Shown in pieces: positions 52,483 through 60,409 of a stretch of DNA of 64,000 nucleotides (positions are counted from its first letter, which is position 1; each line of letters opens with the position of its first letter). Source of the stretch: a bacterium (GTDB taxonomy: Bacteria; Patescibacteriota; Minisyncoccia; UBA6257; WO2-44-18); assembly GCA_030689595.1 (NCBI GenBank), contig JAUYHP010000008.1, positions 32,589 through 96,588 of the forward strand, written 5' to 3'. Position numbers and translations under genes: made by a program. The notes beneath the pieces were generated by a model. It was not told the origin of the DNA. It did not search any database and saw nothing but the letters and a program-made list of their open reading frames with translations.

Positions 52483-52496
52483 AAATTCTAAACAAA

Positions 52497-52530
52497 GTCC
52501 TCTGGCGCCCCGCCTCGGAGGACTTTTTTA
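52497..52530 (+). terminator. Rho-independent terminator after secY, the first of four GC-rich hairpins
   Basis: AGTCCTC...GAGGACT stem then TTTTTT. Further hairpins lie at about 52600-52625, 52668-52692 and 52710-52740. Confidence 0.6.
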
Positions 52531-52754
52531 CTAGACGTCTTAATTTTAATTACGACTAATATAATATCGCCGGTGGGCGATTCTTATCTAGCAAAAAAGC
52601 CAGGTTCCTCCGATGACTATCGGAGGGGTTTTTACTACGTTGTCCAAATTCTATTTGGACGCATAATAATCGCCCCGCGGTGGCGGGGCACATATCGGAG
52701 CAAAACCCCTGGTGTCCCGCTTCGGCGGGACGGTTTTATGTTACAATTATAATT

Positions 52755-53147
52755 ATGGAACCAGTAAAAAGTTTTGAATTTAGCCACGAATCCCTAGAAA
52801 AGGACATGGAGCGTCTGGCTGGCGAGGTTCAAGAAAGGGCAGCAGCCGAGTCGCCAACAGCTCACAAGGAAGCTATTAAATCCACCGTAGGAGAGCAGAT
52901 AAAGAAAATGGCACCCGTCGCTCCAGACCCCAACGAGCACCAATCTTCGACCGTGCCAAATTATCTCCAAGCAGCCGACAACTCGACTAAGTTACAAGTT
53001 GAACAGCTGATAGAATTAGCTTGGCACAAGGGGTTGCCTGCGGCGATTAAGGAGGCTAAAAAGGCTGGGCCTTTATATGTGGACGCCCTACACGACGCTT
53101 TAACCGATAAACTTTACGACGAATTCAAAAGACGTAAGTTGTTATGA
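52755..53147 (+). CDS. Hypothetical soluble protein, first gene of a three-gene operon
   Basis: About 130 aa from MEPVKSF. Its stop overlaps the next start (ATGA). Confidence 0.45.
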   Translation: MEPVKSFEFSHESLEKDMERLAGEVQERAAAESPTAHKEAIKSTVGEQIKKMAPVAPDPNEHQSSTVPNYLQAADNSTKLQVEQLIELAWHKGLPAAIKEAKKAGPLYVDALHDALTDKLYDEFKRRKLL

Positions 53148-55477
53148 AAATAGCGCTAGTAGTTATTTTTGCTGTAATATTTGTGGCAATCGTAATAGCT
53201 ATTATTTTGTATGCTAAGAAATCATCGTTGCGCAATCTTTTAAAAAAATCTTTAAATCTTAAGCTGCTATCTATCAGGCTGCCTCAGCCCGTTGAGAAAG
53301 AGCAACAAAAATTTCAAGATGAAATTAATACTTCTGGTCAATTAATAAGCATTTTAGCCGGGCTTAAGCAGCCATTTACCTTTGAAGTTGCTAAACCAAA
53401 CAACAGCGAAGAAATCCATTTTTACATTGCAGTCCCACAAGATTCTGTAGAGTTTACCTCTAGGCAAATACAAGGCCTCTGGAGCGATGCTCAGATAGAC
53501 CATATAGATGATTATACGATTTTTAATACGACTGGCGCCGCCGGAGTGGCCTATCTTAAGCAAAAGAGTCACAGCGCTATTCCAATTAGAACTTTTGCCG
53601 AGGCTGAAAACGATACCTTTTTACCAATCATCAGCAACCTAACTAAAGTTGAGGGGATAGGTGAGGGGGCCGCCATCCAAATAGTTGTTAAGCCAGCGCC
53701 AGATTCGATAAAAAACAATGTTGATAAAGTTATTAATAAATTGCGCCAAGGAATGTCTCTTAAAGACGCACTAGCTGGCAAAGTCATCAAAACCAACAAA
53801 GACAAAAACGCCCCAGTCCAACCAAGGGTTGTTGATGAAGAGTCGGTTAAAATATTGAGTAGCAAGATAGCTAAGCCGATATTTTCAGTTAATGTTCGCC
53901 TGGCAACTTCAGCGTCCAGCCCAGAAAAAGCAGATGCACTATTAAATGGTTTAGCGGGTTCTTATAATCAATTTTCAGCCCCAGGCAGAAATGAATTTAA
54001 AATAGTCAGCCCCAAAGATAGCAGAGAATTAATATATCAATTCGTTTTCAGGCAACATGATAATCGCCAGAATATGATATTGGGCGCCGATGAATTGGCG
54101 AGTATTTTTCATTTACCAACCAGTGCTACCAGAATTCCTAAAATTCATTGGCTGAAATCTAAAGAAGCCGCACCGCCGCCGAATTTACCAGATGCAGGCG
54201 TAACGATAGGAAAAAGCACTTTTAGAAATGATGACAAATTGGTGAAAATCACCGACGATGATCGTCGACGACATTTATATGTTATCGGCCAAACTGGCAC
54301 TGGTAAATCTAGTCTATTAATTAATATGGCCGTTGACGACATCCGCCAAGGCAAGGGCGTCGCCATAATAGACCCTCACGGCGACTTAATCGACGCGGTA
54401 TCTGGCCTTATTCCAGCTGAAAGACAAAAAGATGTTATCGTTTTCGACCCTGGCGATATCTCTAAACCATTGGGCCTTAACATGCTTGAATATGACGTTA
54501 ATCGTCCCGAAGAAAAGACCTTTATTGTCAACGAAATGCAGAGCATTTTTAATAAGTTATTTACGGCCGAAACTATGGGGCCTATGTTCGAACAATATAT
54601 GCGCAATGCCTTGTTGCTATTGATGGAAGATATGCCACACTCTCCTTCGACGCTAACGGAAGTGCCTCGTATTTTTACTGATGCAGATTTCCGCCGAGAA
54701 AAAACTAGTCGCGCCCTCAACCCGACAGTCGTAGATTTTTGGGAAAAAGAGGCCGCGAAAGCAGGCGGCGAAGCATCTCTAGCCAACATCACCCCCTATA
54801 TAACTTCTAAATTTAACAATTTCTTGGCTAACGATTATGTGCGGCCGATTATTGGCCAAGTGCGGTCGTCGTTTAATTTCCGCAAGGTGATGGATGATGG
54901 CAAAATATTGTTGGTCAATCTTTCCAAGGGGCGCATCGGTGATATAAATGCTGGACTTTTAGGTATGATTGTCGTCGGTAAATTGTTGATGGCGGCTTTA
55001 TCGCGAGTAGATCTAGCCCAAGAACAGCGTCGCGATTTTAATTTATACATCGATGAGTTCCAAAACTTCACTACCGATTCTATCGCCACGATTTTATCAG
55101 AAGCTCGTAAGTATAAATTAAATCTTGTCATTGCTCACCAATTTATTGGTCAGCTAACTGAAAAAATTCGTGATGCTGTTTTTGGCAATGTGGGCTCGAT
55201 GGCTGTGTTTAGGGTCGGCGCTGACGACGCTGAGTTTCTAGCTAAACAATTTGATCCAGTATTTTCTAAAACCGACCTCATCAACATTGACAACTTCAAC
55301 GCCTACCTTAAATTATTGATTGCCGGTCAAACATCCAGGCCATTTAATATGATAACTATTCCACCGGAGCAGGGTGACGAAAAAATTAAAGAAGCTTTAA
55401 AAGAATATTCACGCAACACCTACGGCCGTGATAGGGGAGAGGTAGAAGCCGAAATACTTAAGAGATTAAGGGCCTAA
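53144..55477 (+). CDS. Membrane-anchored TraG/VirD4/TrwB-like (type IV coupling protein / FtsK-HerA superfamily) ATPase
   Basis: N-terminal TM helix and a roughly 400-aa unique middle region. Walker A YVIGQTGTGKSSLL is followed by IIDPHGD. The C-terminal YIDEFQNF...ARKYKLNLVIAHQFIGQL...GNVGSMAVFRVGADDAEFL follows the TraD/TraG Walker B-to-C-terminus pattern. Confidence 0.65.
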   Translation: MKIALVVIFAVIFVAIVIAIILYAKKSSLRNLLKKSLNLKLLSIRLPQPVEKEQQKFQDEINTSGQLISILAGLKQPFTFEVAKPNNSEEIHFYIAVPQDSVEFTSRQIQGLWSDAQIDHIDDYTIFNTTGAAGVAYLKQKSHSAIPIRTFAEAENDTFLPIISNLTKVEGIGEGAAIQIVVKPAPDSIKNNVDKVINKLRQGMSLKDALAGKVIKTNKDKNAPVQPRVVDEESVKILSSKIAKPIFSVNVRLATSASSPEKADALLNGLAGSYNQFSAPGRNEFKIVSPKDSRELIYQFVFRQHDNRQNMILGADELASIFHLPTSATRIPKIHWLKSKEAAPPPNLPDAGVTIGKSTFRNDDKLVKITDDDRRRHLYVIGQTGTGKSSLLINMAVDDIRQGKGVAIIDPHGDLIDAVSGLIPAERQKDVIVFDPGDISKPLGLNMLEYDVNRPEEKTFIVNEMQSIFNKLFTAETMGPMFEQYMRNALLLLMEDMPHSPSTLTEVPRIFTDADFRREKTSRALNPTVVDFWEKEAAKAGGEASLANITPYITSKFNNFLANDYVRPIIGQVRSSFNFRKVMDDGKILLVNLSKGRIGDINAGLLGMIVVGKLLMAALSRVDLAQEQRRDFNLYIDEFQNFTTDSIATILSEARKYKLNLVIAHQFIGQLTEKIRDAVFGNVGSMAVFRVGADDAEFLAKQFDPVFSKTDLINIDNFNAYLKLLIAGQTSRPFNMITIPPEQGDEKIKEALKEYSRNTYGRDRGEVEAEILKRLRA

Positions 55478-55536
55478 TATTGACGCCTTATATAAAATTT
55501 GCTAATCTGTTAGAAGCTCATTTCAAGGAGGTTATT

Positions 55537-55791
55537 ATGAGCCGAGAAAAGCTACGCAGAGCATTGTGCGGCCGTAAGATTATTTTTGTTAATGTTAATG
55601 ACGACGGGAATGATTTTATGACCTTAACCCTTGATGACGGCTCTAAAATTGTTTTCACTCATGGGGCAGATCCTGGTCAGCCAGTTTGGACCAAGATTGT
55701 TAAACGTAACCTCGATGAGCATGATGATTATGTTTGTACTGATGAGTTGTGGTCTACCAGCGGTGGCAGTGGGCGCGTAGGGATGCTTTGA
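55537..55791 (+). CDS. Small hypothetical protein, third gene of the operon
   Basis: AAGGAGG RBS before the ATG at 55537; 84 aa. Confidence 0.4.
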   Translation: MSREKLRRALCGRKIIFVNVNDDGNDFMTLTLDDGSKIVFTHGADPGQPVWTKIVKRNLDEHDDYVCTDELWSTSGGSGRVGML

Positions 55792-55835
55792 GAGGACAGC
55801 TCTGACCCGTGTTTCCGGTTCGGGATTTTAAAATA

Positions 55836-55873
55836 AAATTAATGGCGTGACTTAGGTCACGCCATTTTTATTA
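55836..55873. terminator. Bidirectional terminator
   Basis: AAAATAAAATTA-ATGGCGTGAC-TTAG-GTCACGCCAT-TTTTATTA. Confidence 0.7.
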
Positions 55874-55876
55874 AGA

Positions 55877-56659
55877 TTATTTTAAATAGCCAATTTTCTT
55901 CAGCCAATATTCATTGTCCCACTCCCACAATTTCTTGGCCGCCAAAAAAGCTTCAAAATCTTCTTTCCAATAGGGATCTTCTTTTATAGCTGTTACGCCA
56001 GTTAATGGGCCCCATTCATGTTGATCTTCTGGACAAACCTTTAGCCCACGAATTGAGGGATATGGTTTGCGAATTTTTTCTCGCCCGCCCTTAGGGCGCA
56101 AGGTTGATTTACATTTTGGACAAGTTTTAATCTGATCAACTCTCAATATCCATCTTGTTTGTGGATCAACTACCGAAGGATCTTTAGTCAGAGCATCCAT
56201 ATAAGCCGCTGTTTGCAAATTATAATCTCGATAAAAATCCATCGAAGTTTTAATATCCATAACGCCAAATTTACCGCCAATCAGAGCCATAGCATCAATC
56301 GTGCCGGCATAGCTATGATCTAGATTCATAATTCGCTTTTCAATTGATTGCGGATCAACTTGAATATTATTCCGATCAATAAACTCTATACACGAATTAA
56401 CTGCCGGCGCTATGCTTTCATCAATATCTCTCTGTTTTCCCAAAAGAATATCTTGAACGGTTTCGTGTACTAGCGTGCCTTCTTCGGCCGATTTTTTTGT
56501 TTGCGCTTCTGCCGCCGCAAAACTAGTAGCGGAAGCATAATATCTATATAAAGCCGGTTTAGATTTTACGCCAATGATCTTAGTAACACGCGGATACCAA
56601 AAACCGTTGATATCATAACCGCATTGTTCTTTAAATTGTTCGGGCGTGGAGTAGTACAT
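55877..56659 (-). CDS. PD-(D/E)xK nuclease-family protein (Cas4/RecB-like fold) with a Cys-rich C-terminus
   Basis: HETVQD..., then D-x13-MDIKT (the D...D/E-x-K arrangement: GTIDAMALIGGKFGVMDIKTS). CPKCK...C...C may be a zinc ribbon. Confidence 0.5.
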   Translation of the reverse strand: MYYSTPEQFKEQCGYDINGFWYPRVTKIIGVKSKPALYRYYASATSFAAAEAQTKKSAEEGTLVHETVQDILLGKQRDIDESIAPAVNSCIEFIDRNNIQVDPQSIEKRIMNLDHSYAGTIDAMALIGGKFGVMDIKTSMDFYRDYNLQTAAYMDALTKDPSVVDPQTRWILRVDQIKTCPKCKSTLRPKGGREKIRKPYPSIRGLKVCPEDQHEWGPLTGVTAIKEDPYWKEDFEAFLAAKKLWEWDNEYWLKKIGYLK

Positions 56660-56842
56660 TAAAAAATTATTAAGAAATTAATCTATTTAGCCATTAAGTA
56701 ATAAATAAATTGTAGTACGTAGCAGTCGTTAAGTACAGGATGTTGTTGTGCGTGATGCTAAAATTTTAGAAGACGCTAACACGGCCTTAAAGGATGTGTC
56801 TATTAAAGGAGTCGTTTATTATATACTCCGCGGACACAGATT

Positions 56843-56903
56843 AGCGCTGCTTTCACATGTGAAAGCAGCGCTGCTTGACGTATTGATGGGTTATTGTTAT
56901 CAT
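56843..56903 (+). promoter_or_regulatory. 30-bp perfect palindrome abutting a promoter-like -35/-10 pair
   Basis: AGCGCTGCTTTCACATGTGAAAGCAGCGCT (56843-56872), immediately followed by TTGACG, a 17-bp spacer, and TATCAT. Confidence 0.45.
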
Positions 56904-56947
56904 ATTCAGAAGTTCTTTGACGTTCACCTGATAAGGAGCATAGAGCG

Positions 56948-57106
56948 ATGAACAGAAAAACGCTGGACATGATTACCATTCTCGTTGCCTCTCTTGGCGT
57001 GTGTGTGGCACTTTTCATTATTGCCACCATGCCCGGCAATGAGACTGTAGGACTGTGTCTTATTGGGGGAGCCCTAACCGCGGCACTTCTCACGATACTG
57101 ATTTAG
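56948..57106 (+). CDS. Unannotated 52-aa two-TM hydrophobic peptide (toxin- or holin-like small protein)
   Basis: AGGAGC RBS and the ATG at 56948. The sequence is MNRKTLDMITILVASLGVCVALFIIATMPGNETVGLCLIGGALTAALLTILI. It falls below the 60-aa cutoff of the ORF track. Confidence 0.4.
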   Translation: MNRKTLDMITILVASLGVCVALFIIATMPGNETVGLCLIGGALTAALLTILI

Positions 57107-57436
57107 ACGCGCAACACCAGAAAAAAGTTTTAAGGCGGCTGGCCATCTTCCCGATGGCAGCTAATGTCTAGTATTTAGGTGATTTTGACGATATTCAGAA
57201 GGCCAAGCTGGTTGCCGCTAAAAAAGGCACTGGTTGTACCGGAAGCGCTATTTTTGCCGCAGGTGTATATGACCATGCGGGTAAACAGATCCATTTCTTT
57301 CGCCGTAGACCGTCTACAATTGCTAAGGATTAAGCTTGATAAATATAGCCGCCATCTTTATTAATAAAGTTGGCGGTTTTTTCTTTTTACGCATTTATCA
57401 ACAGGGTAGGGCTACCAAATATTTGCTCGATATAAT

Positions 57437-57468
57437 AAAGTGAGTGTAAGGGATATTATACTCACTTT
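57437..57468. other. 12-6-12 inverted repeat, candidate tyrosine-recombinase core site
   Basis: AAGTGAGTGTAA-GGGATA-TTATACTCACTT, with 11 of 12 positions matching between arms, 75 bp upstream of the recombinase gene. Confidence 0.4.
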
Positions 57469-57542
57469 GGTATATGTGAGAAAATAATGGTAAAATTGGT
57501 AAAAAGCACTCCCCTAACACTATTTTGTAGAAATTATCAATT

Positions 57543-58514
57543 ATGACAAAAGCTGACAGCGATAATAAAAAAGTTACAATTCTTCCTCATCTAGATGACT
57601 TTTTATTACACCTACAGAGTAATAACTATTCACCCAAAACCGTATATAATTACGAACGCGACCTAATAGTATTTGATGGCTTCCTACAGGATGACCTAGG
57701 CCTAAAAGACTTCCAAGATGCCTCAAAACAGGCTCTAGAACGGTATAAGGCGTATCTGATGTCTACTGACCGTAAAACAGCCCGTAAAACGCAAAATAAG
57801 GCCAATTTAGGGGCCTATTCACGCAACCGACACCTATCAGCCCTCAGGAGCTATCTTAAGTACTTAATTGACGGGGACTATAAGACCCCGATCGTCCCAG
57901 AGAACATAAAGCTAATCAAAACTGACAAAAAGATAGCCAAAGTGGCCGAGCTGCAAGACTTAATCAAATTGATTGAATCCCCCACCAAATTTGAAAAAAA
58001 TCCAATCATAGCTAAGCGCAATCGCGCCATGTTAGAAGTTTTATTTGCTACCGGTTTACGTATTTCCGAATTAGTTAATCTCAAAAAAAATCAGATCGAT
58101 AGGGAAGGCAAGATTTTTGTTTTGGGCAAAGGCAAAAAAGAAAGATTTGTTTATTTGACCCCTAGAGCCATAAAATATTTAAAAATATATTTAACCGAAC
58201 GCAACGATGACTCCCCTCACCTATTCATTTCTTATCGCGGCAAAAGAGCGCCAACGCAAGATCATCATGTGTCGCCAAATTATTTACAAGAAAAAATAAA
58301 AAAATACCGAGAGATTCTTGGCATCAATGTGCCAACTAGCGCCCACTCACTCCGCCACGGCTTTGCCACCTATCTGGCCGAAAAAGGCGCCAGCCCTGCC
58401 GCCATTCAAATACTTTTGGGTCACGAGTCTTTAGACACTACCACTCGCTATGTCCACGCCTCGCATCGCTTCGCCAAAAAAACTCACCAGAAATTTCATC
58501 CACTGAAAGATTAA
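57543..58514 (+). CDS. Tyrosine site-specific recombinase (XerC/XerD/integrase family)
   Basis: C-terminal HSLRHGFAT...LLGHESLDTTTRYVH (R-H-R-Y catalytic set), and N-terminal SAM-like core-binding domain. Confidence 0.85.
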   Translation: MTKADSDNKKVTILPHLDDFLLHLQSNNYSPKTVYNYERDLIVFDGFLQDDLGLKDFQDASKQALERYKAYLMSTDRKTARKTQNKANLGAYSRNRHLSALRSYLKYLIDGDYKTPIVPENIKLIKTDKKIAKVAELQDLIKLIESPTKFEKNPIIAKRNRAMLEVLFATGLRISELVNLKKNQIDREGKIFVLGKGKKERFVYLTPRAIKYLKIYLTERNDDSPHLFISYRGKRAPTQDHHVSPNYLQEKIKKYREILGINVPTSAHSLRHGFATYLAEKGASPAAIQILLGHESLDTTTRYVHASHRFAKKTHQKFHPLKD

Positions 58515-58550
58515 AATAAAAATCCCATAGTAGTGTGAATAATGGTATAT

Positions 58551-58580
58551 AAAAAAAAACCCGAACCACTTGGTTCGGGG
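58551..58580 (-). terminator. Rho-independent terminator for the minus-strand gdh-ychF-adk-map transcript
   Basis: On the minus strand: CCCGAACCA-AG-TGGTTCGGG then TTTTTTTTT. Confidence 0.65.
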
Positions 58581-58690
58581 TTGATGCTACTTGGCCGAGG
58601 TTGTCATCAGAAACAAGCTCAACCAGTGCCGTTTCTGGTGCCCCTTCTGGAGCACGACGACACCTGCCCACTGCTCCACCGCCTTTCCTG

Positions 58691-58795
58691 TCTGCCAGGC
58701 AAGGCCGAGGAACTGAACGACATCCCCGCCAGCTTTCTGCCAGGCAAGGCCGAGGCCCTGCACGGCATCCGCACTAGCACTCTGCCAGGCCATGA
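58691..58795. repeat. GC-rich 45-bp tandem repeat (about 2.3 copies)
   Basis: CTGCCAGGCAAGGCCGAGG recurs at 58691 and 58736, and a partial copy at 58781. Local GC is about 60%, against a roughly 42% background. Confidence 0.6.
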
Positions 58796-58901
58796 CTACC
58801 TCCAATACAACGGTGGACAGTGAAGTGATTAAACTTTGTTTAGGTACTGGGGCTAGTATATCATAAATATGTGAGGTTTGTCAAGGGGGACAAGTATTAA
58901 C

Positions 58902-59660
58902 TCACTTAGTTAATATCTCGACACCATTTTTAGTTATGGCTACTGTATGTTCAAAATGAGCCGATAAGCTACCATCGGCAGTAGCATAACTGTCGTCGTC
59001 TAGTTGGATAACTTCAGAGGTGCCAATGGCTACCATGGGTTCTATGGCAATCACCAAGCCAGGCTCAATTTTAAAACCACTCCCCTTTTGGCCCTCATTG
59101 AAAACTGATGGCTCCTCGTGCAGTTCTTTGCCAATTCCATGACCAGTTAACCCCTCCGATATATGCAATCCTTGAGCTTTAACATAACTACTTATGGCAT
59201 AGCCAATATCGCCCAACTTATTACCTACTTTTGCGGCGGCCACTCCCCTGTTCAATGCTTCGCGGGTAGTGTCAATTAATTTTTGTGCCTCAATAGAGAT
59301 TTCACCTATCGGTACAGTCCAGGCGGCATCGGCATTATAGCCATCGTAATTAACGCCAAAATCTAATTTCAAGATATCACCTGGCTTCAATAAATGCTCT
59401 CGCGGCACACCATGAACAATAACCTCATTGACTGAAGCGCAGATAGAACAGGGGTACGGCTTGATGGCGCCATAAGGCTGATAATTTAAGAATGACGGTT
59501 TGGCGCCGGCTTTTTCTATAAGATTTCTGGCGATAGTATCTAGATATTTTAATTTCACACCCGGCTTAGCCAATTCCAATATCTGCTTGGCGGTTGCGGC
59601 CAGAATCCTCCCGGCCTTTCTCATAATTTCAATCTCTTCTGGGGTTTTAATATGAATCAT
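58902..59660 (-). CDS. map: Methionine aminopeptidase type I
   Basis: Metal ligands are in the expected context (D...D...H...E...E; HGIGKELHEEP). Confidence 0.9.
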   Translation of the reverse strand: MIHIKTPEEIEIMRKAGRILAATAKQILELAKPGVKLKYLDTIARNLIEKAGAKPSFLNYQPYGAIKPYPCSICASVNEVIVHGVPREHLLKPGDILKLDFGVNYDGYNADAAWTVPIGEISIEAQKLIDTTREALNRGVAAAKVGNKLGDIGYAISSYVKAQGLHISEGLTGHGIGKELHEEPSVFNEGQKGSGFKIEPGLVIAIEPMVAIGTSEVIQLDDDSYATADGSLSAHFEHTVAITKNGVEILTK

Positions 59661-59679
59661 ATATTTTTATAATCCCACT

Positions 59680-60369
59680 CTAAAGTTTTAGTTTCTTGGC
59701 AACAGAAGCATGCACCTTAAACGGCAATGGCATGCCATTAACTTTTGTGATTTTGTAGCCACGCTTTTTTAATCCAGCCAAAATAGGAAAAGTGCGCTCT
59801 TGATACTCTTTTATCCTTGTCTTGAAAACTGATGGATTGTCCACTGTACGCTTGATCAACTTACCACCACATAACGGACAAGTTTTGTGTTTATGTAATG
59901 CATCGCTATATAAAACTGCCGTAGCACACACCGAACAAACCATCCGATATTTATTTCTTTTGATAGAGGCGTTGGGGTCAATATCTAAGAAAACTGGATA
60001 AATGTTCTGCTTGCCATAAGCTTTCTCCAAAACGCGCACTAGGCCAGTATGTTTATTATCGCCAAAGGCCTCAAACATTGTTCGTGGAGAACCACTAAAT
60101 ACAATATTAAATCCGGCCCTAGCTATCTCCTTAGCTTTGTTGGCCGTAACTTTTAATACAAAACTTGGCGTCATTAAAGCGCCGGAGTCAAATAGCTTGC
60201 CCTCACGTTGAATAATTCTATTTTTTTTATTACTCGGGTCGTGGACTAACTGCTCCAAATAGCGGCCAGTATCAAAATGGGTAAAGCCTTTTCGCCCAGT
60301 CAAAAGATTGGCTTGAGTGCCTTTCCCTGCCCCCGGTGGGCCATAAAATATAACTGCTATCTTCGCCAT
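59680..60369 (-). CDS. adk: Adenylate kinase with Zn-lid
   Basis: GPPGAGKGTQA P-loop; lid CSVCATA...CPLCGG. Confidence 0.9.
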   Translation of the reverse strand: MAKIAVIFYGPPGAGKGTQANLLTGRKGFTHFDTGRYLEQLVHDPSNKKNRIIQREGKLFDSGALMTPSFVLKVTANKAKEIARAGFNIVFSGSPRTMFEAFGDNKHTGLVRVLEKAYGKQNIYPVFLDIDPNASIKRNKYRMVCSVCATAVLYSDALHKHKTCPLCGGKLIKRTVDNPSVFKTRIKEYQERTFPILAGLKKRGYKITKVNGMPLPFKVHASVAKKLKL

Positions 60370-60409
60370 GTTCTATTTATTATATCTCTAATTGGATGAT
60401 TAACCAATT

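What the first reader, a model, noticed from the sequence alone, without database searches (positions are those of the whole stretch)
55877..56659. Orphan PD-(D/E)xK nuclease convergent with the ATPase operon
A D...D-I-K core (GTIDAM...VMDIKT), an N-terminal HETVQD-like motif and a C-terminal Cys cluster suggest a Cas4/RecB/YqaJ-type nuclease. It sits between the coupling-protein-like operon and the recombinase. This placement is typical of mobile-element recombination modules, and also of two-component ATPase-plus-nuclease defence systems.
Basis: inference. Interest (0 to 1): 0.5.

Follow-up and report, generated by a model that had tools for sequence, protein, structure and literature searches.

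The report
MGME1-like housekeeping nuclease of Paceibacteria
The gene is a real, well-conserved DNA-cutting enzyme of a well-known type, most like the human mitochondrial exonuclease MGME1, but it is an ordinary core chromosomal gene of a group of tiny uncultured bacteria and shows no sign of belonging to a mobile element or an anti-phage system.

Summary

The family is found in at least 427 Patescibacteria species genomes and in no viral contig. Its commonest neighbour is a co-oriented Mur ligase gene directly upstream (29/80 loci). The ATPase lies within 10 kb in only 19/80 loci, mostly convergent when present, and in the window a bidirectional terminator separates the two genes. The ATPase is a widespread chromosomal T4CP-like gene. 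The neighbouring recombinase carries a conserved dif-like site just upstream, so it is probably the chromosome-dimer resolvase.

Verdict: an ordinary new member of a known kind. The zinc-ribbon insertion is a minor variant.

The parts
55877..56659 (-). CDS of the 260-aa MGME1-like RecB-type PD-(D/E)xK nuclease
56465..56467 (-). Codon of His65 (motif Ia; equivalent to MGME1 His180)
   Evidence: Invariant in A1. Aligned to MGME1 H180. Role of H180 taken from PMC6237815.
56339..56341 (-). Codon of Glu107 (motif I; equivalent to MGME1 Glu223)
   Evidence: Invariant in A1. Alignment. PMC6237815.
56294..56296 (-). Codon of Asp122 (motif II, GTID; equivalent to MGME1 Asp238)
   Evidence: Invariant in A1 and A2. 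Alignment.
56249..56257 (-). Codons of Asp135-Ile136-Lys137 (motif III, D-x-K; equivalent to MGME1 Asp251-Trp252-Lys253)
   Evidence: D135 and K137 are invariant in A1 and A2. Alignment.
56201..56215 (-). Codons of Gln149-Thr-Ala-Ala-Tyr153 (motif IV, QhxxY, the RecB-type hallmark)
   Evidence: Q149 and Y153 are invariant in A1 and A2. Motif definition from PMC6237815.
55979..56158 (-). Residues 168-227: clade-specific beta-rich insertion with C180-x2-C183 ... C209-x4-H214, inferred to be a zinc ribbon
   Evidence: Predicted strands 168-179, 186-190, 193-197 and 219-227. The Cys/His residues are conserved in the full-length clade down to 36% identity, and the whole insertion is missing from relatives of ~200-240 aa. 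Metal binding is inferred, not shown.
55841..55866 (.). Bidirectional intrinsic-terminator-like hairpin (11-bp stem, T-runs on both strands) between the nuclease stop codon and the ATPase operon

Best explanation
The gene encodes a stand-alone, metal-dependent DNA nuclease of the RecB branch of the PD-(D/E)xK superfamily. Its closest characterised relative is the mitochondrial exonuclease MGME1. By analogy with MGME1, His65, Glu107, Asp122 and Asp135 would hold two divalent cations, Lys137 would orient the attacking water, and the QxxxY motif together with an N-terminal helical segment would hold a single-stranded DNA end. The expected activity is therefore end-dependent degradation of ssDNA, flaps or overhangs. 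A CCCH insertion specific to this clade, probably a zinc ribbon, is likely to add a DNA-contact or protein-contact surface. The gene is a vertically inherited core gene of Paceibacteria-type Patescibacteria and most likely acts in housekeeping DNA replication, repair or recombination (end or flap processing). In this window it is transcribed on its own. Shown here: the fold, the motifs, their conservation, the taxonomic distribution and the gene contexts. Inferred: catalysis, substrate, polarity, zinc binding and cellular role.
For: Sequence: PHROG 298 'exonuclease' E 7.5e-22. PDDEXK_1 is the only Pfam family hit, by 25 of 27 family members. A family profile finds MGME1 in the PDB at E 1.4e-13 and no other natural protein in the list.
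Motifs: the five residues or motifs map one-to-one onto MGME1 H180, E223, D238, D251/K253 and QhxxY. Mutating H180, E223, D238 or D251 reduces MGME1 activity, and the same paper cites earlier work for K253 (PMC6237815). All are invariant in the family.
Core-gene status: at least 427 GTDB species genomes, all Patescibacteria. Homologues are 58-80% identical. dN/dS is far below 1. Neighbours are housekeeping genes: Mur ligase directly upstream in 29/80 loci, M23 peptidase in 42/80, GltX in 37/80 and YchF in 27/80. Base composition matches the flanks. No viral contig carries it.
Against: There is no biochemistry for any member of this clade. The protein's own Pfam score (19.1 bits) is below the PDDEXK_1 gathering score of 22. 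Identity to MGME1 is only 16-19%, so substrate preference and polarity cannot simply be transferred. The zinc-ribbon insertion has no counterpart in the shorter relatives and could change substrate or partner. The cellular role rests only on distribution and context, and the contexts (cell-wall genes, tRNA synthetase, YchF) say nothing about DNA metabolism. A predicted 3'-5' exonuclease nearby in 20/80 loci is only a weak hint.
Confidence: 0.7

Rival explanations
1. The nuclease is the effector of a two-component ATPase-plus-nuclease anti-phage defence system, paired with the 777-aa ATPase.
For: The two genes are adjacent and convergent here. The same holds in 17 of 80 related loci. The ATPase domain hits the PADLOC model mad8 (E 1.9e-17) and HerA models weakly.
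Against: The nuclease matches no PADLOC model apart from marginal Cas4 hits (E 0.004-0.018). The genes are convergent and separated by a bidirectional terminator, so they are not co-transcribed. The ATPase is within 10 kb in only 19/80 loci. That is 8 of the 10 closest relatives but only 11 of the other 70, with gaps of 17-3298 nt and unrelated genes in between, which is the pattern of decaying synteny. In GCA_040961635 the two genes lie 10 kb apart on the same strand, with FtsW, MurG and GltX between them. Both are highly conserved core genes at ~60% identity across lineages, unlike patchy defence genes. VirD4-type T4CP homologues are reported in 2,918 Patescibacteria genomes (PMC12102498), a much wider spread than this nuclease.
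Confidence: 0.04
2. The nuclease is the exonuclease of a mobile-element or prophage recombination module that works with the neighbouring recombinase.
For: Distant phage relatives are annotated as exonuclease, RecE-like or Cas4-family exonuclease. A tyrosine recombinase gene lies 883 nt away.
Against: No single-strand annealing protein or other phage gene is nearby: the 64-kb window is ribosomal, pilus, glycogen and translation genes. IMG/VR contains no member of the family. The recombinase is Xer-like (TIGR02224 E 8e-57). It carries a dif-like 24-nt site 79 nt upstream, present once in the window. In at least 120 metagenome contigs that site is linked to Xer orthologues, and to the nuclease in only one of them. 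Only 3 of the 80 related loci have an orthologue of this recombinase (79-87% identity) next to the nuclease; one more (L018) has only a distant 30%-identity tyrosine recombinase hit. There is no compositional anomaly.
Confidence: 0.03
3. It is a Cas4-type nuclease with an Fe-S cluster, or a solo Cas4.
Against: TIGR00372 scores 13 bits against a cut-off of 65. No Pfam Cas_Cas4 hit. The conserved ligands are three Cys plus one His, all within one insertion C-terminal to motif IV. Cys13 near the N-terminus is not conserved. There are no CRISPR-like repeats in the 64 kb. MGME1 is much closer in both fold and sequence.
Confidence: 0.02
4. The nuclease cooperates, outside any defence role, with the membrane-anchored T4CP-like DNA translocase to process DNA moving across the membrane, for example DNA uptake or nucleotide scavenging in these auxotrophic bacteria.
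For: The convergent neighbourhood is retained in a whole sub-clade despite an inversion of the segment. An ssDNA exonuclease and a DNA-pumping ATPase are a plausible functional pair (inference). The T4CP homologues of Patescibacteria are mostly encoded away from virB4 and may have been exapted for another role (PMC12102498).
Against: The same context data as for the defence rival: adjacency in 19/80 loci, no co-transcription, and the nuclease much more often follows a Mur ligase gene. No direct evidence exists for any interaction.
Confidence: 0.08
5. It is a structure-specific endonuclease (flap, fork or junction cutter) or an RNA-directed nuclease rather than an end-dependent ssDNA exonuclease.
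For: The PD-(D/E)xK fold supports many specificities. The zinc-ribbon insertion is new relative to MGME1. MGME1 itself cuts flaps (PMC6237815).
Confidence: 0.1

Closest known systems
MGME1 (mitochondrial genome maintenance exonuclease 1, human; PDB 5ZYU, 5ZYT, 8XA9)
   Different: Only 16-19% identical. It is bacterial and has no mitochondrial targeting sequence. It carries a ~60-residue CCCH insertion between the last core strands, which is also absent from the shorter bacterial and phage relatives. Activity, polarity and partners are untested.
Phage PD-(D/E)xK exonucleases (PHROG 298, 466 and 69; annotated as exonuclease, RecE-like or Cas4-family exonuclease in actinophages, Flavobacterium and Pseudomonas phages)
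   Same: Best profile match is PHROG 298 at E 7.5e-22 over residues 15-172. tblastn finds 23-38% identity to phage exonucleases. 76 BFVD models match at E<=1e-3, one of them labelled MGME1-like.
   Different: The phage proteins lack the zinc-ribbon insertion and sit in phage replication or recombination modules. This family is chromosomal, is a core gene of one bacterial lineage, and is absent from IMG/VR.
Cas4 (CRISPR adaptation nuclease) and the nuclease domains of AddB, Dna2 and AdnAB
   Different: By established knowledge of these families, they bind an Fe-S cluster through four Cys that straddle the core. Here the ligand set is CxxC...CxxxxH inside one insertion. Cas4 model scores are far below threshold. 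No cas genes or CRISPR array are present, and there is no fused helicase.
RecE, lambda exonuclease and the YqaJ family
   Different: No YqaJ Pfam match. No annealase partner gene nearby. Those enzymes work as toroidal oligomers on dsDNA ends (established knowledge), whereas the closest relative here, MGME1, is a monomer (PMC6237815).

Membership tests
PD-(D/E)xK superfamily, RecB-type branch | Core motifs I (E), II (D) and III ((D/E)xK) in the right order and conserved | tested here: met
   E107, D122 and D135-I-K137 are invariant in A1. D122, D135 and K137 are invariant and E107 is >=90% conserved in A2.
PD-(D/E)xK superfamily, RecB-type branch | RecB-type extra motifs: Ia His and IV QhxxY (as defined in PMC6237815) | tested here: met
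   H65 (invariant in A1, >=90% in A2) and Q149-T-A-A-Y153 (Q and Y invariant).
PD-(D/E)xK superfamily, RecB-type branch | Restriction-endonuclease-like alpha/beta fold | tested here: met
Pfam PF12705 PDDEXK_1 | Score at or above the gathering threshold (22 bits) | tested here: inconclusive
   This protein scores 19.1 bits, E 1.4e-3. 25 of 27 close homologues match at E<=0.01, best 8e-6, and no other family matches. Some homologues carry a precomputed PF12705 hit.
MGME1 family | Significant sequence and fold similarity over the whole nuclease domain, with the catalytic residues aligned | tested here: met
   Residue mapping is H65/H180, E107/E223, D122/D238, D135/D251 and K137/K253.
MGME1 family | Orthology with the animal mitochondrial protein (a shared clade to the exclusion of other bacterial and phage PDDEXK_1 proteins) | not tested
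I therefore call it 'MGME1-like', not a member.
MGME1 family | Mg2+-dependent ssDNA/flap exonuclease activity | not testable with these tools
   Needs biochemistry.
Cas4 | Match to Cas4 models above threshold | tested here: not met
   TIGR00372 scores 13 bits against a cut-off of 65. No PF01930 hit at E<=1. PADLOC Cas4 E 0.004-0.018.
Cas4 | Four conserved Cys (one N-terminal, CX2CX5C C-terminal) that bind an Fe-S cluster | tested here: not met
   The conserved ligands are C180, C183, C209 and H214, all in one insertion. N-terminal C13 is variable.
Cas4 | Association with cas genes or a CRISPR array (not required for solo Cas4) | tested here: not met
   No CRISPR-like repeats in the 64 kb. No cas genes among the recurrent neighbours in 80 loci.
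YqaJ / lambda-exonuclease recombination module | YqaJ-domain match and an adjacent single-strand annealing protein | tested here: not met
ATPase-plus-nuclease defence system | Conserved operon-like linkage of the two genes, and matches to known defence models | tested here: not met
   The ATPase is within 10 kb in 19/80 loci, mostly convergent, with gaps of 17-3298 nt. A terminator separates them. The nuclease matches no PADLOC system model.

The most novel reading that the evidence does not exclude
This zinc-ribbon-bearing MGME1-like nuclease is the main ssDNA-end or flap-processing exonuclease of Paceibacteria. It would stand in for end-resection or flap nucleases missing from these minimal genomes. 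It may also represent the prokaryotic lineage closest to the ancestor of mitochondrial MGME1, or work together with the exapted T4CP-like DNA translocase encoded next to it in one sub-clade.
Probability: 0.12. Interest if true: 0.45.

Novelty: new member of a known kind. Interest (0 to 1): 0.2.

Why it matters
The finding matters little by itself. It gives a confident functional class to a 'hypothetical protein' family that is conserved across hundreds of uncultured Paceibacteria species: an MGME1-like RecB-type nuclease with a probable zinc ribbon. It also removes a tempting but wrong reading of the locus as a mobile element or defence island. If the enzyme proves to be the main DNA-end or flap nuclease of these minimal genomes, it would help explain how CPR bacteria replicate and repair DNA with so few known factors. 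It would also provide a bacterial model for MGME1. The side observation, a Xer gene with a conserved adjacent dif-like site at a probable replication terminus, may be the more useful lead. It could serve to locate termini and check assemblies in Patescibacteria genomes.

Tried and rejected
1. Pfam, NCBIfam and PADLOC searches for Cas4, YqaJ, DUF3799 or defence models gave only sub-threshold Cas4 noise.
2. A Rad50 zinc-hook hit (E 0.075) was dismissed as low-complexity CxxC noise.
3. An IMG/VR scan for the family found no relatives.
5. Rfam over the whole window found only tRNA-Gln, and nothing in the 883-nt region upstream of the nuclease.
6. A CRISPR-like repeat search found none.
7. It is probably spurious or an orphan.
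8. A search for inverted repeats at the two inversion breakpoints (secY/small-protein and adk/ychF spacers) found only 7-9-nt chance matches.
9. Literature searches for DUF8128, for Xer/dif in CPR, and for CPR end-resection nucleases returned nothing usable.
10. The listing of cluster members for the shorter relatives gave almost no names or taxa.
11. The murC, gltX and murG genes that usually precede the nuclease were not found anywhere in this 64-kb window.

Full report
**1. The observation**

The ORF exists exactly as described: 55877..56659 on the minus strand, ATG start, 260 aa. The quoted strings are there. HETVQD is at residues 65-70, GTIDAM at 119-124 and VMDIKT at 133-138, and Cys residues lie at 180, 183 and 209.

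It is a real gene.
- A search of 5.8 billion proteins returned 1704 homologues at E<=1e-3. The best 120 cover the full length at 58-100% identity.
- Against orthologues in L010-L014, dN is 0.13-0.22 while dS is saturated. Where it can be computed, dN/dS is <=0.09.

The gene is convergent with the ATPase operon. A bidirectional intrinsic-terminator-like hairpin lies between the two 3' ends at 55841-55866 (11-bp stem, T-runs on both strands).

**2. What the protein is**

*Profile searches.* The query's own Pfam match to PDDEXK_1 is below threshold (19.1 bits against 22). However, 25 of 27 close homologues match that family and no other. The best profile match is PHROG 298 'exonuclease' (E 7.5e-22, residues 15-172). 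Cas4 models give only noise: TIGR00372 scores 13 bits against a cut-off of 65, and PADLOC Cas4 gives E 0.004-0.018. No YqaJ, Cas_Cas4 or DUF3799 match appears even at E<=1.

*Structure.* An AlphaFold2 model built from 27 homologues is confident (mean pLDDT 91.8, pTM 0.85).
- It is well ahead of the Dna2 nuclease domain (13.7), Cas4-Cas1 (12.1), AdnAB (11.5), RecE (11.3), SSO0001 Cas4 (10.6) and lambda exonuclease (7.9).
- Foldseek agrees. Its top nine hits are all MGME1, at E 1e-7 to 1e-6.

*Sequence homology to MGME1.* The relationship is also visible by sequence alone. A profile of alignment A2 finds MGME1 at E 1.4e-13, and the only other entries in that list are de novo designed repeat or helical proteins.

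**3. Catalytic motifs**

The MGME1 structure paper (PMC6237815) defines motif Ia (His180), I (Glu223), II (Asp238), III (Asp251-Trp252-Lys253) and IV (QhxxY). It shows that H180Q, E223Q, D238N and D251N impair cleavage, and cites earlier work for K253.

In the HMMER alignments these residues align with His65, Glu107, Asp122, Asp135-Ile-Lys137 and Gln149...Tyr153 of the window protein.
- All are invariant in the 27-sequence alignment A1.
- In the 20-sequence alignment A2, which reaches 25% identity, D122, D135, K137, Q149 and Y153 are still invariant, and H65 and E107 are >=90% conserved.
- The N-terminal motif WYPRVTKI aligns with MGME1's IPSVTRVL.

That criterion is not met, so the nuclease call stands.

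**4. The Cys cluster**

The conserved ligand set is C180-x2-C183 ... C209-x4-H214. C180, C183 and H214 are invariant in A1, and C209 is >=90% conserved. All four lie in a beta-rich stretch, residues 168-227, with predicted strands 168-179, 186-190, 193-197 and 219-227.

Full-length relatives down to 36% identity keep the Cys and His residues, including members from Wildermuthbacteria. Relatives of about 200-240 aa lack the whole stretch.

The search of 50%-identity representatives fits this picture. It found 8392 hits at E<=1e-3 but only 37 at E<=1e-30, and most of the weaker listed hits end near profile position 155-185.

I therefore read the cluster as a clade-specific zinc-ribbon-like insertion. 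It is not the Fe-S cluster of Cas4, AddB or Dna2, whose four Cys straddle the core (family knowledge). Here the only N-terminal Cys, C13, is variable. Metal binding is an inference, because I could not measure distances in the model.

**5. Distribution**

A pattern scan of one genome per GTDB species found 427 stretches encoding a relative. The 80 best are all Patescibacteria MAGs: Harrison-, Lipton-, Wolfe- and Paceibacteria labels, plus one complete Parcubacteria genome. No relative exists in 2.9 million IMG/VR viral contigs.

Phage proteins are only distant relatives.
- tblastn identity is 23-38% over partial lengths.
- 76 BFVD models match at E<=1e-3. Most named ones are annotated PD-(D/E)XK nuclease or exonuclease, and one is annotated MGME1-like.

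**6. Context: is it linked to the ATPase?**

I censused the 80 GTDB loci, which carry up to 10 kb of flank on each side.

| Neighbour of the nuclease | Loci (of 80) | Position |
|---|---|---|
| M23 peptidase | 42 | upstream, same strand |
| GltX | 37 | upstream, same strand |
| Mur ligase (Mur_ligase N, M and C domains) | 29 | directly upstream, co-oriented, gaps 6-190 nt |
| YchF | 27 | downstream |
| DUF8128/T4CP-like ATPase (>300 bits) | 19 | 17 of these downstream and convergent, gaps 17-3298 nt |

- Among loci with at least 6 kb on both sides, the ATPase is present in 10 of 37.
- The ATPase is present in 8 of the 10 closest relatives but in only 11 of the other 70.
- Unrelated genes, for example two glycoside hydrolases in L007, can lie between the two genes.
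- In GCA_040961635 the two genes are 10 kb apart on the same strand, separated by FtsW, MurG, GltX and others.

This pattern indicates decaying synteny, not selection for linkage. Convergent genes split by a terminator cannot be one operon.

The ATPase is itself a core gene. It has more than 5000 homologues, and the top 120 are at least 59% identical. It belongs to the VirD4-type T4CP homologues reported in 2,918 Patescibacteria genomes. These are mostly encoded away from virB4 and may have been exapted for another role (PMC12102498).

Base composition across 52-59 kb matches the flanks (GC 0.38-0.48). The rest of the window is ordinary chromosome: the ribosomal protein operon, SecY, EF-Tu, BipA, PilB/PilC and glycogen genes.

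**7. The recombinase**

The 323-aa protein at 57543-58514 is Xer-like. It matches TIGR02224 at E 8e-57, below the equivalog cut-off.

A 24-nt imperfect palindrome lies 79 nt upstream of it, at 57441-57464: TGAGTGTAA-GGGATA-TTATACTCA.
- It is the only strongly conserved block in the otherwise diverged spacer in the three related loci that carry the same recombinase.
- It occurs once in the window, against 0 expected by chance.
- In 79 of those contigs a Xer orthologue (>=45% identity) starts within 300 nt (median 36 nt), always with the site upstream of its 5' end. This holds for 39 of the 47 contigs with at least 1.2 kb on both sides. Only one contig also carries the nuclease.

The architecture is that of a dif site: 9-11-nt arms, a 6-nt spacer GRRWTA and an inner TAA-N6-TTA. 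A site placed next to its own recombinase gene recalls the single-recombinase XerS/difSL and XerH/difH modules (my own knowledge).

The cumulative GC skew of the window peaks at about 54-57 kb, and gene orientation switches there. This fits a replication terminus, although skew and coding strand are confounded. The recombinase is therefore best read as the chromosome-dimer resolvase, which removes the second pillar of the mobile-element reading.

**8. Local history**

In most related genomes that carry the ATPase, the order is: rp-operon, secY, adk, map, (Mur ligase), nuclease (+), then ATPase (-), small protein (-) and ychF (-). This is seen in L005, L007, L012, L023, L025, L028 and L031.

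The window, L009/L010 and L011 instead have secY, small protein, ATPase, then nuclease (-), xer (+), map (-), adk (-) and ychF (-). This is an inversion of the adk...small-protein segment between secY and ychF. The Xer/dif module sits where the Mur ligase usually is. No repeats were found at the breakpoints.

This explains why the nuclease looks 'orphaned' here. It has lost its usual upstream partner, and murC, gltX and murG are absent from the 64 kb.

**9. Mechanism and verdict**

Shown: the fold, the motif set, its conservation, the core-gene distribution, and independent transcription in this window.

Inferred by homology to MGME1:
- two-metal-ion hydrolysis using His65, Glu107, Asp122, Asp135 and Lys137;
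- engagement of a single-stranded DNA end through the helical segment before His65 and the QxxxY motif;
- hence an end-dependent ssDNA, flap or overhang exonuclease acting in housekeeping replication, repair or recombination.

The zinc ribbon probably adds a DNA-contact or protein-contact surface.

Confidence that it is an active RecB-type, MGME1-like nuclease is about 0.9. Confidence in the specific activity and role is about 0.5.

It is a new member of a known kind. NCBI already names some homologues 'PD-(D/E)XK nuclease family protein'. The CCCH insertion is a modest variant. Interest is low, at 0.2.

The more novel readings are not excluded, but nothing here supports them: that it is the principal end-processing nuclease of Paceibacteria, a prokaryotic cousin of the MGME1 ancestor, or a partner of the T4CP-like translocase.

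Noticed in passing
window 57441-57464 (with the Xer-like gene at 57543-58514): A conserved 24-nt dif-like site, TGAGTGTAA-GGGATA-TTATACTCA, lies 79 nt upstream of the Xer-like recombinase gene and occurs once in the window. In 79 of them it lies a median of 36 nt upstream of a Xer orthologue's 5' end. This looks like a single-recombinase Xer/dif module of Patescibacteria. No paper on it was found.
   Followed up: yes
window ~54000-58000: The cumulative GC skew peaks here, and gene orientation switches from mostly + (30.4-55.8 kb) to - (55.9-63 kb), next to the dif-like site. This is a candidate replication terminus. Skew and coding strand are confounded, and only 64 kb is visible.
   Followed up: partly
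window 52483-60409; compare L005, L007, L012 with L009/L010, L011: Relative to most related genomes, this lineage has inverted the adk-map...nuclease-ATPase-small-protein segment between secY and ychF. This breaks the near-universal secY-adk-map linkage. No repeats were found at the breakpoints.
   Followed up: partly
window 52680-55477 (+): A small protein (155-aa ORF; the true start is probably downstream, since homologues are 129-135 aa) is followed by a 777-aa membrane-anchored ATPase whose start overlaps the small protein's stop codon. The ATPase combines DUF8128 with a VirD4/TraD-like domain. It is a core Patescibacteria pair with more than 5000 homologues. The ATPase matches PHROG 5156 over its full length (E 6e-76) and PADLOC mad8 (E 1.9e-17). 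The function of these T4CP-like proteins encoded away from virB4 is open.
   Followed up: partly
window 55480-55791 (+): A 103-aa ORF with a TTG start lies directly after the ATPase. It has no homologue in any related locus, even at E 10. In L011 the ATPase-nuclease gap is only 17 nt. It is probably not a gene.
   Followed up: yes
window 58688-58777: Two tandem copies of a GC-rich 45-nt unit (82% identical) lie in the spacer between the Xer-like gene and map. ORFs of 93 and 72 aa overlap them on both strands. No similar DNA was found in the related loci.
   Followed up: partly
window 56843-56872 and 56948-57106: A perfect 30-nt palindrome (AGCGCTGCTTTCACA/TGTGAAAGCAGCGCT) lies in the 883-nt region upstream of the nuclease. 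It is followed by a 52-aa hydrophobic ORF with an AAGGAG ribosome-binding site and a terminator-like palindrome at 57349-57376. Neither is conserved in related loci.
   Followed up: partly
related loci, e.g. L088 14512-15456 (-): In 20 of 80 related loci a predicted 3'-5' exonuclease (PF10108 DNA_pol_B_exo2, E 1.2e-20) lies about 1 kb downstream of the nuclease and convergent with it. It is absent from this window.
   Followed up: partly
related loci L012-L089 (e.g. L028, L055, L089): In 29 of 80 loci the nuclease gene follows a co-oriented Mur ligase gene by 6-190 nt, at the end of a cell-wall-type cluster (FtsW, MurG, GltX, M23 peptidase, Mur ligase). Co-transcription is likely, but no functional link is evident.
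   Followed up: partly
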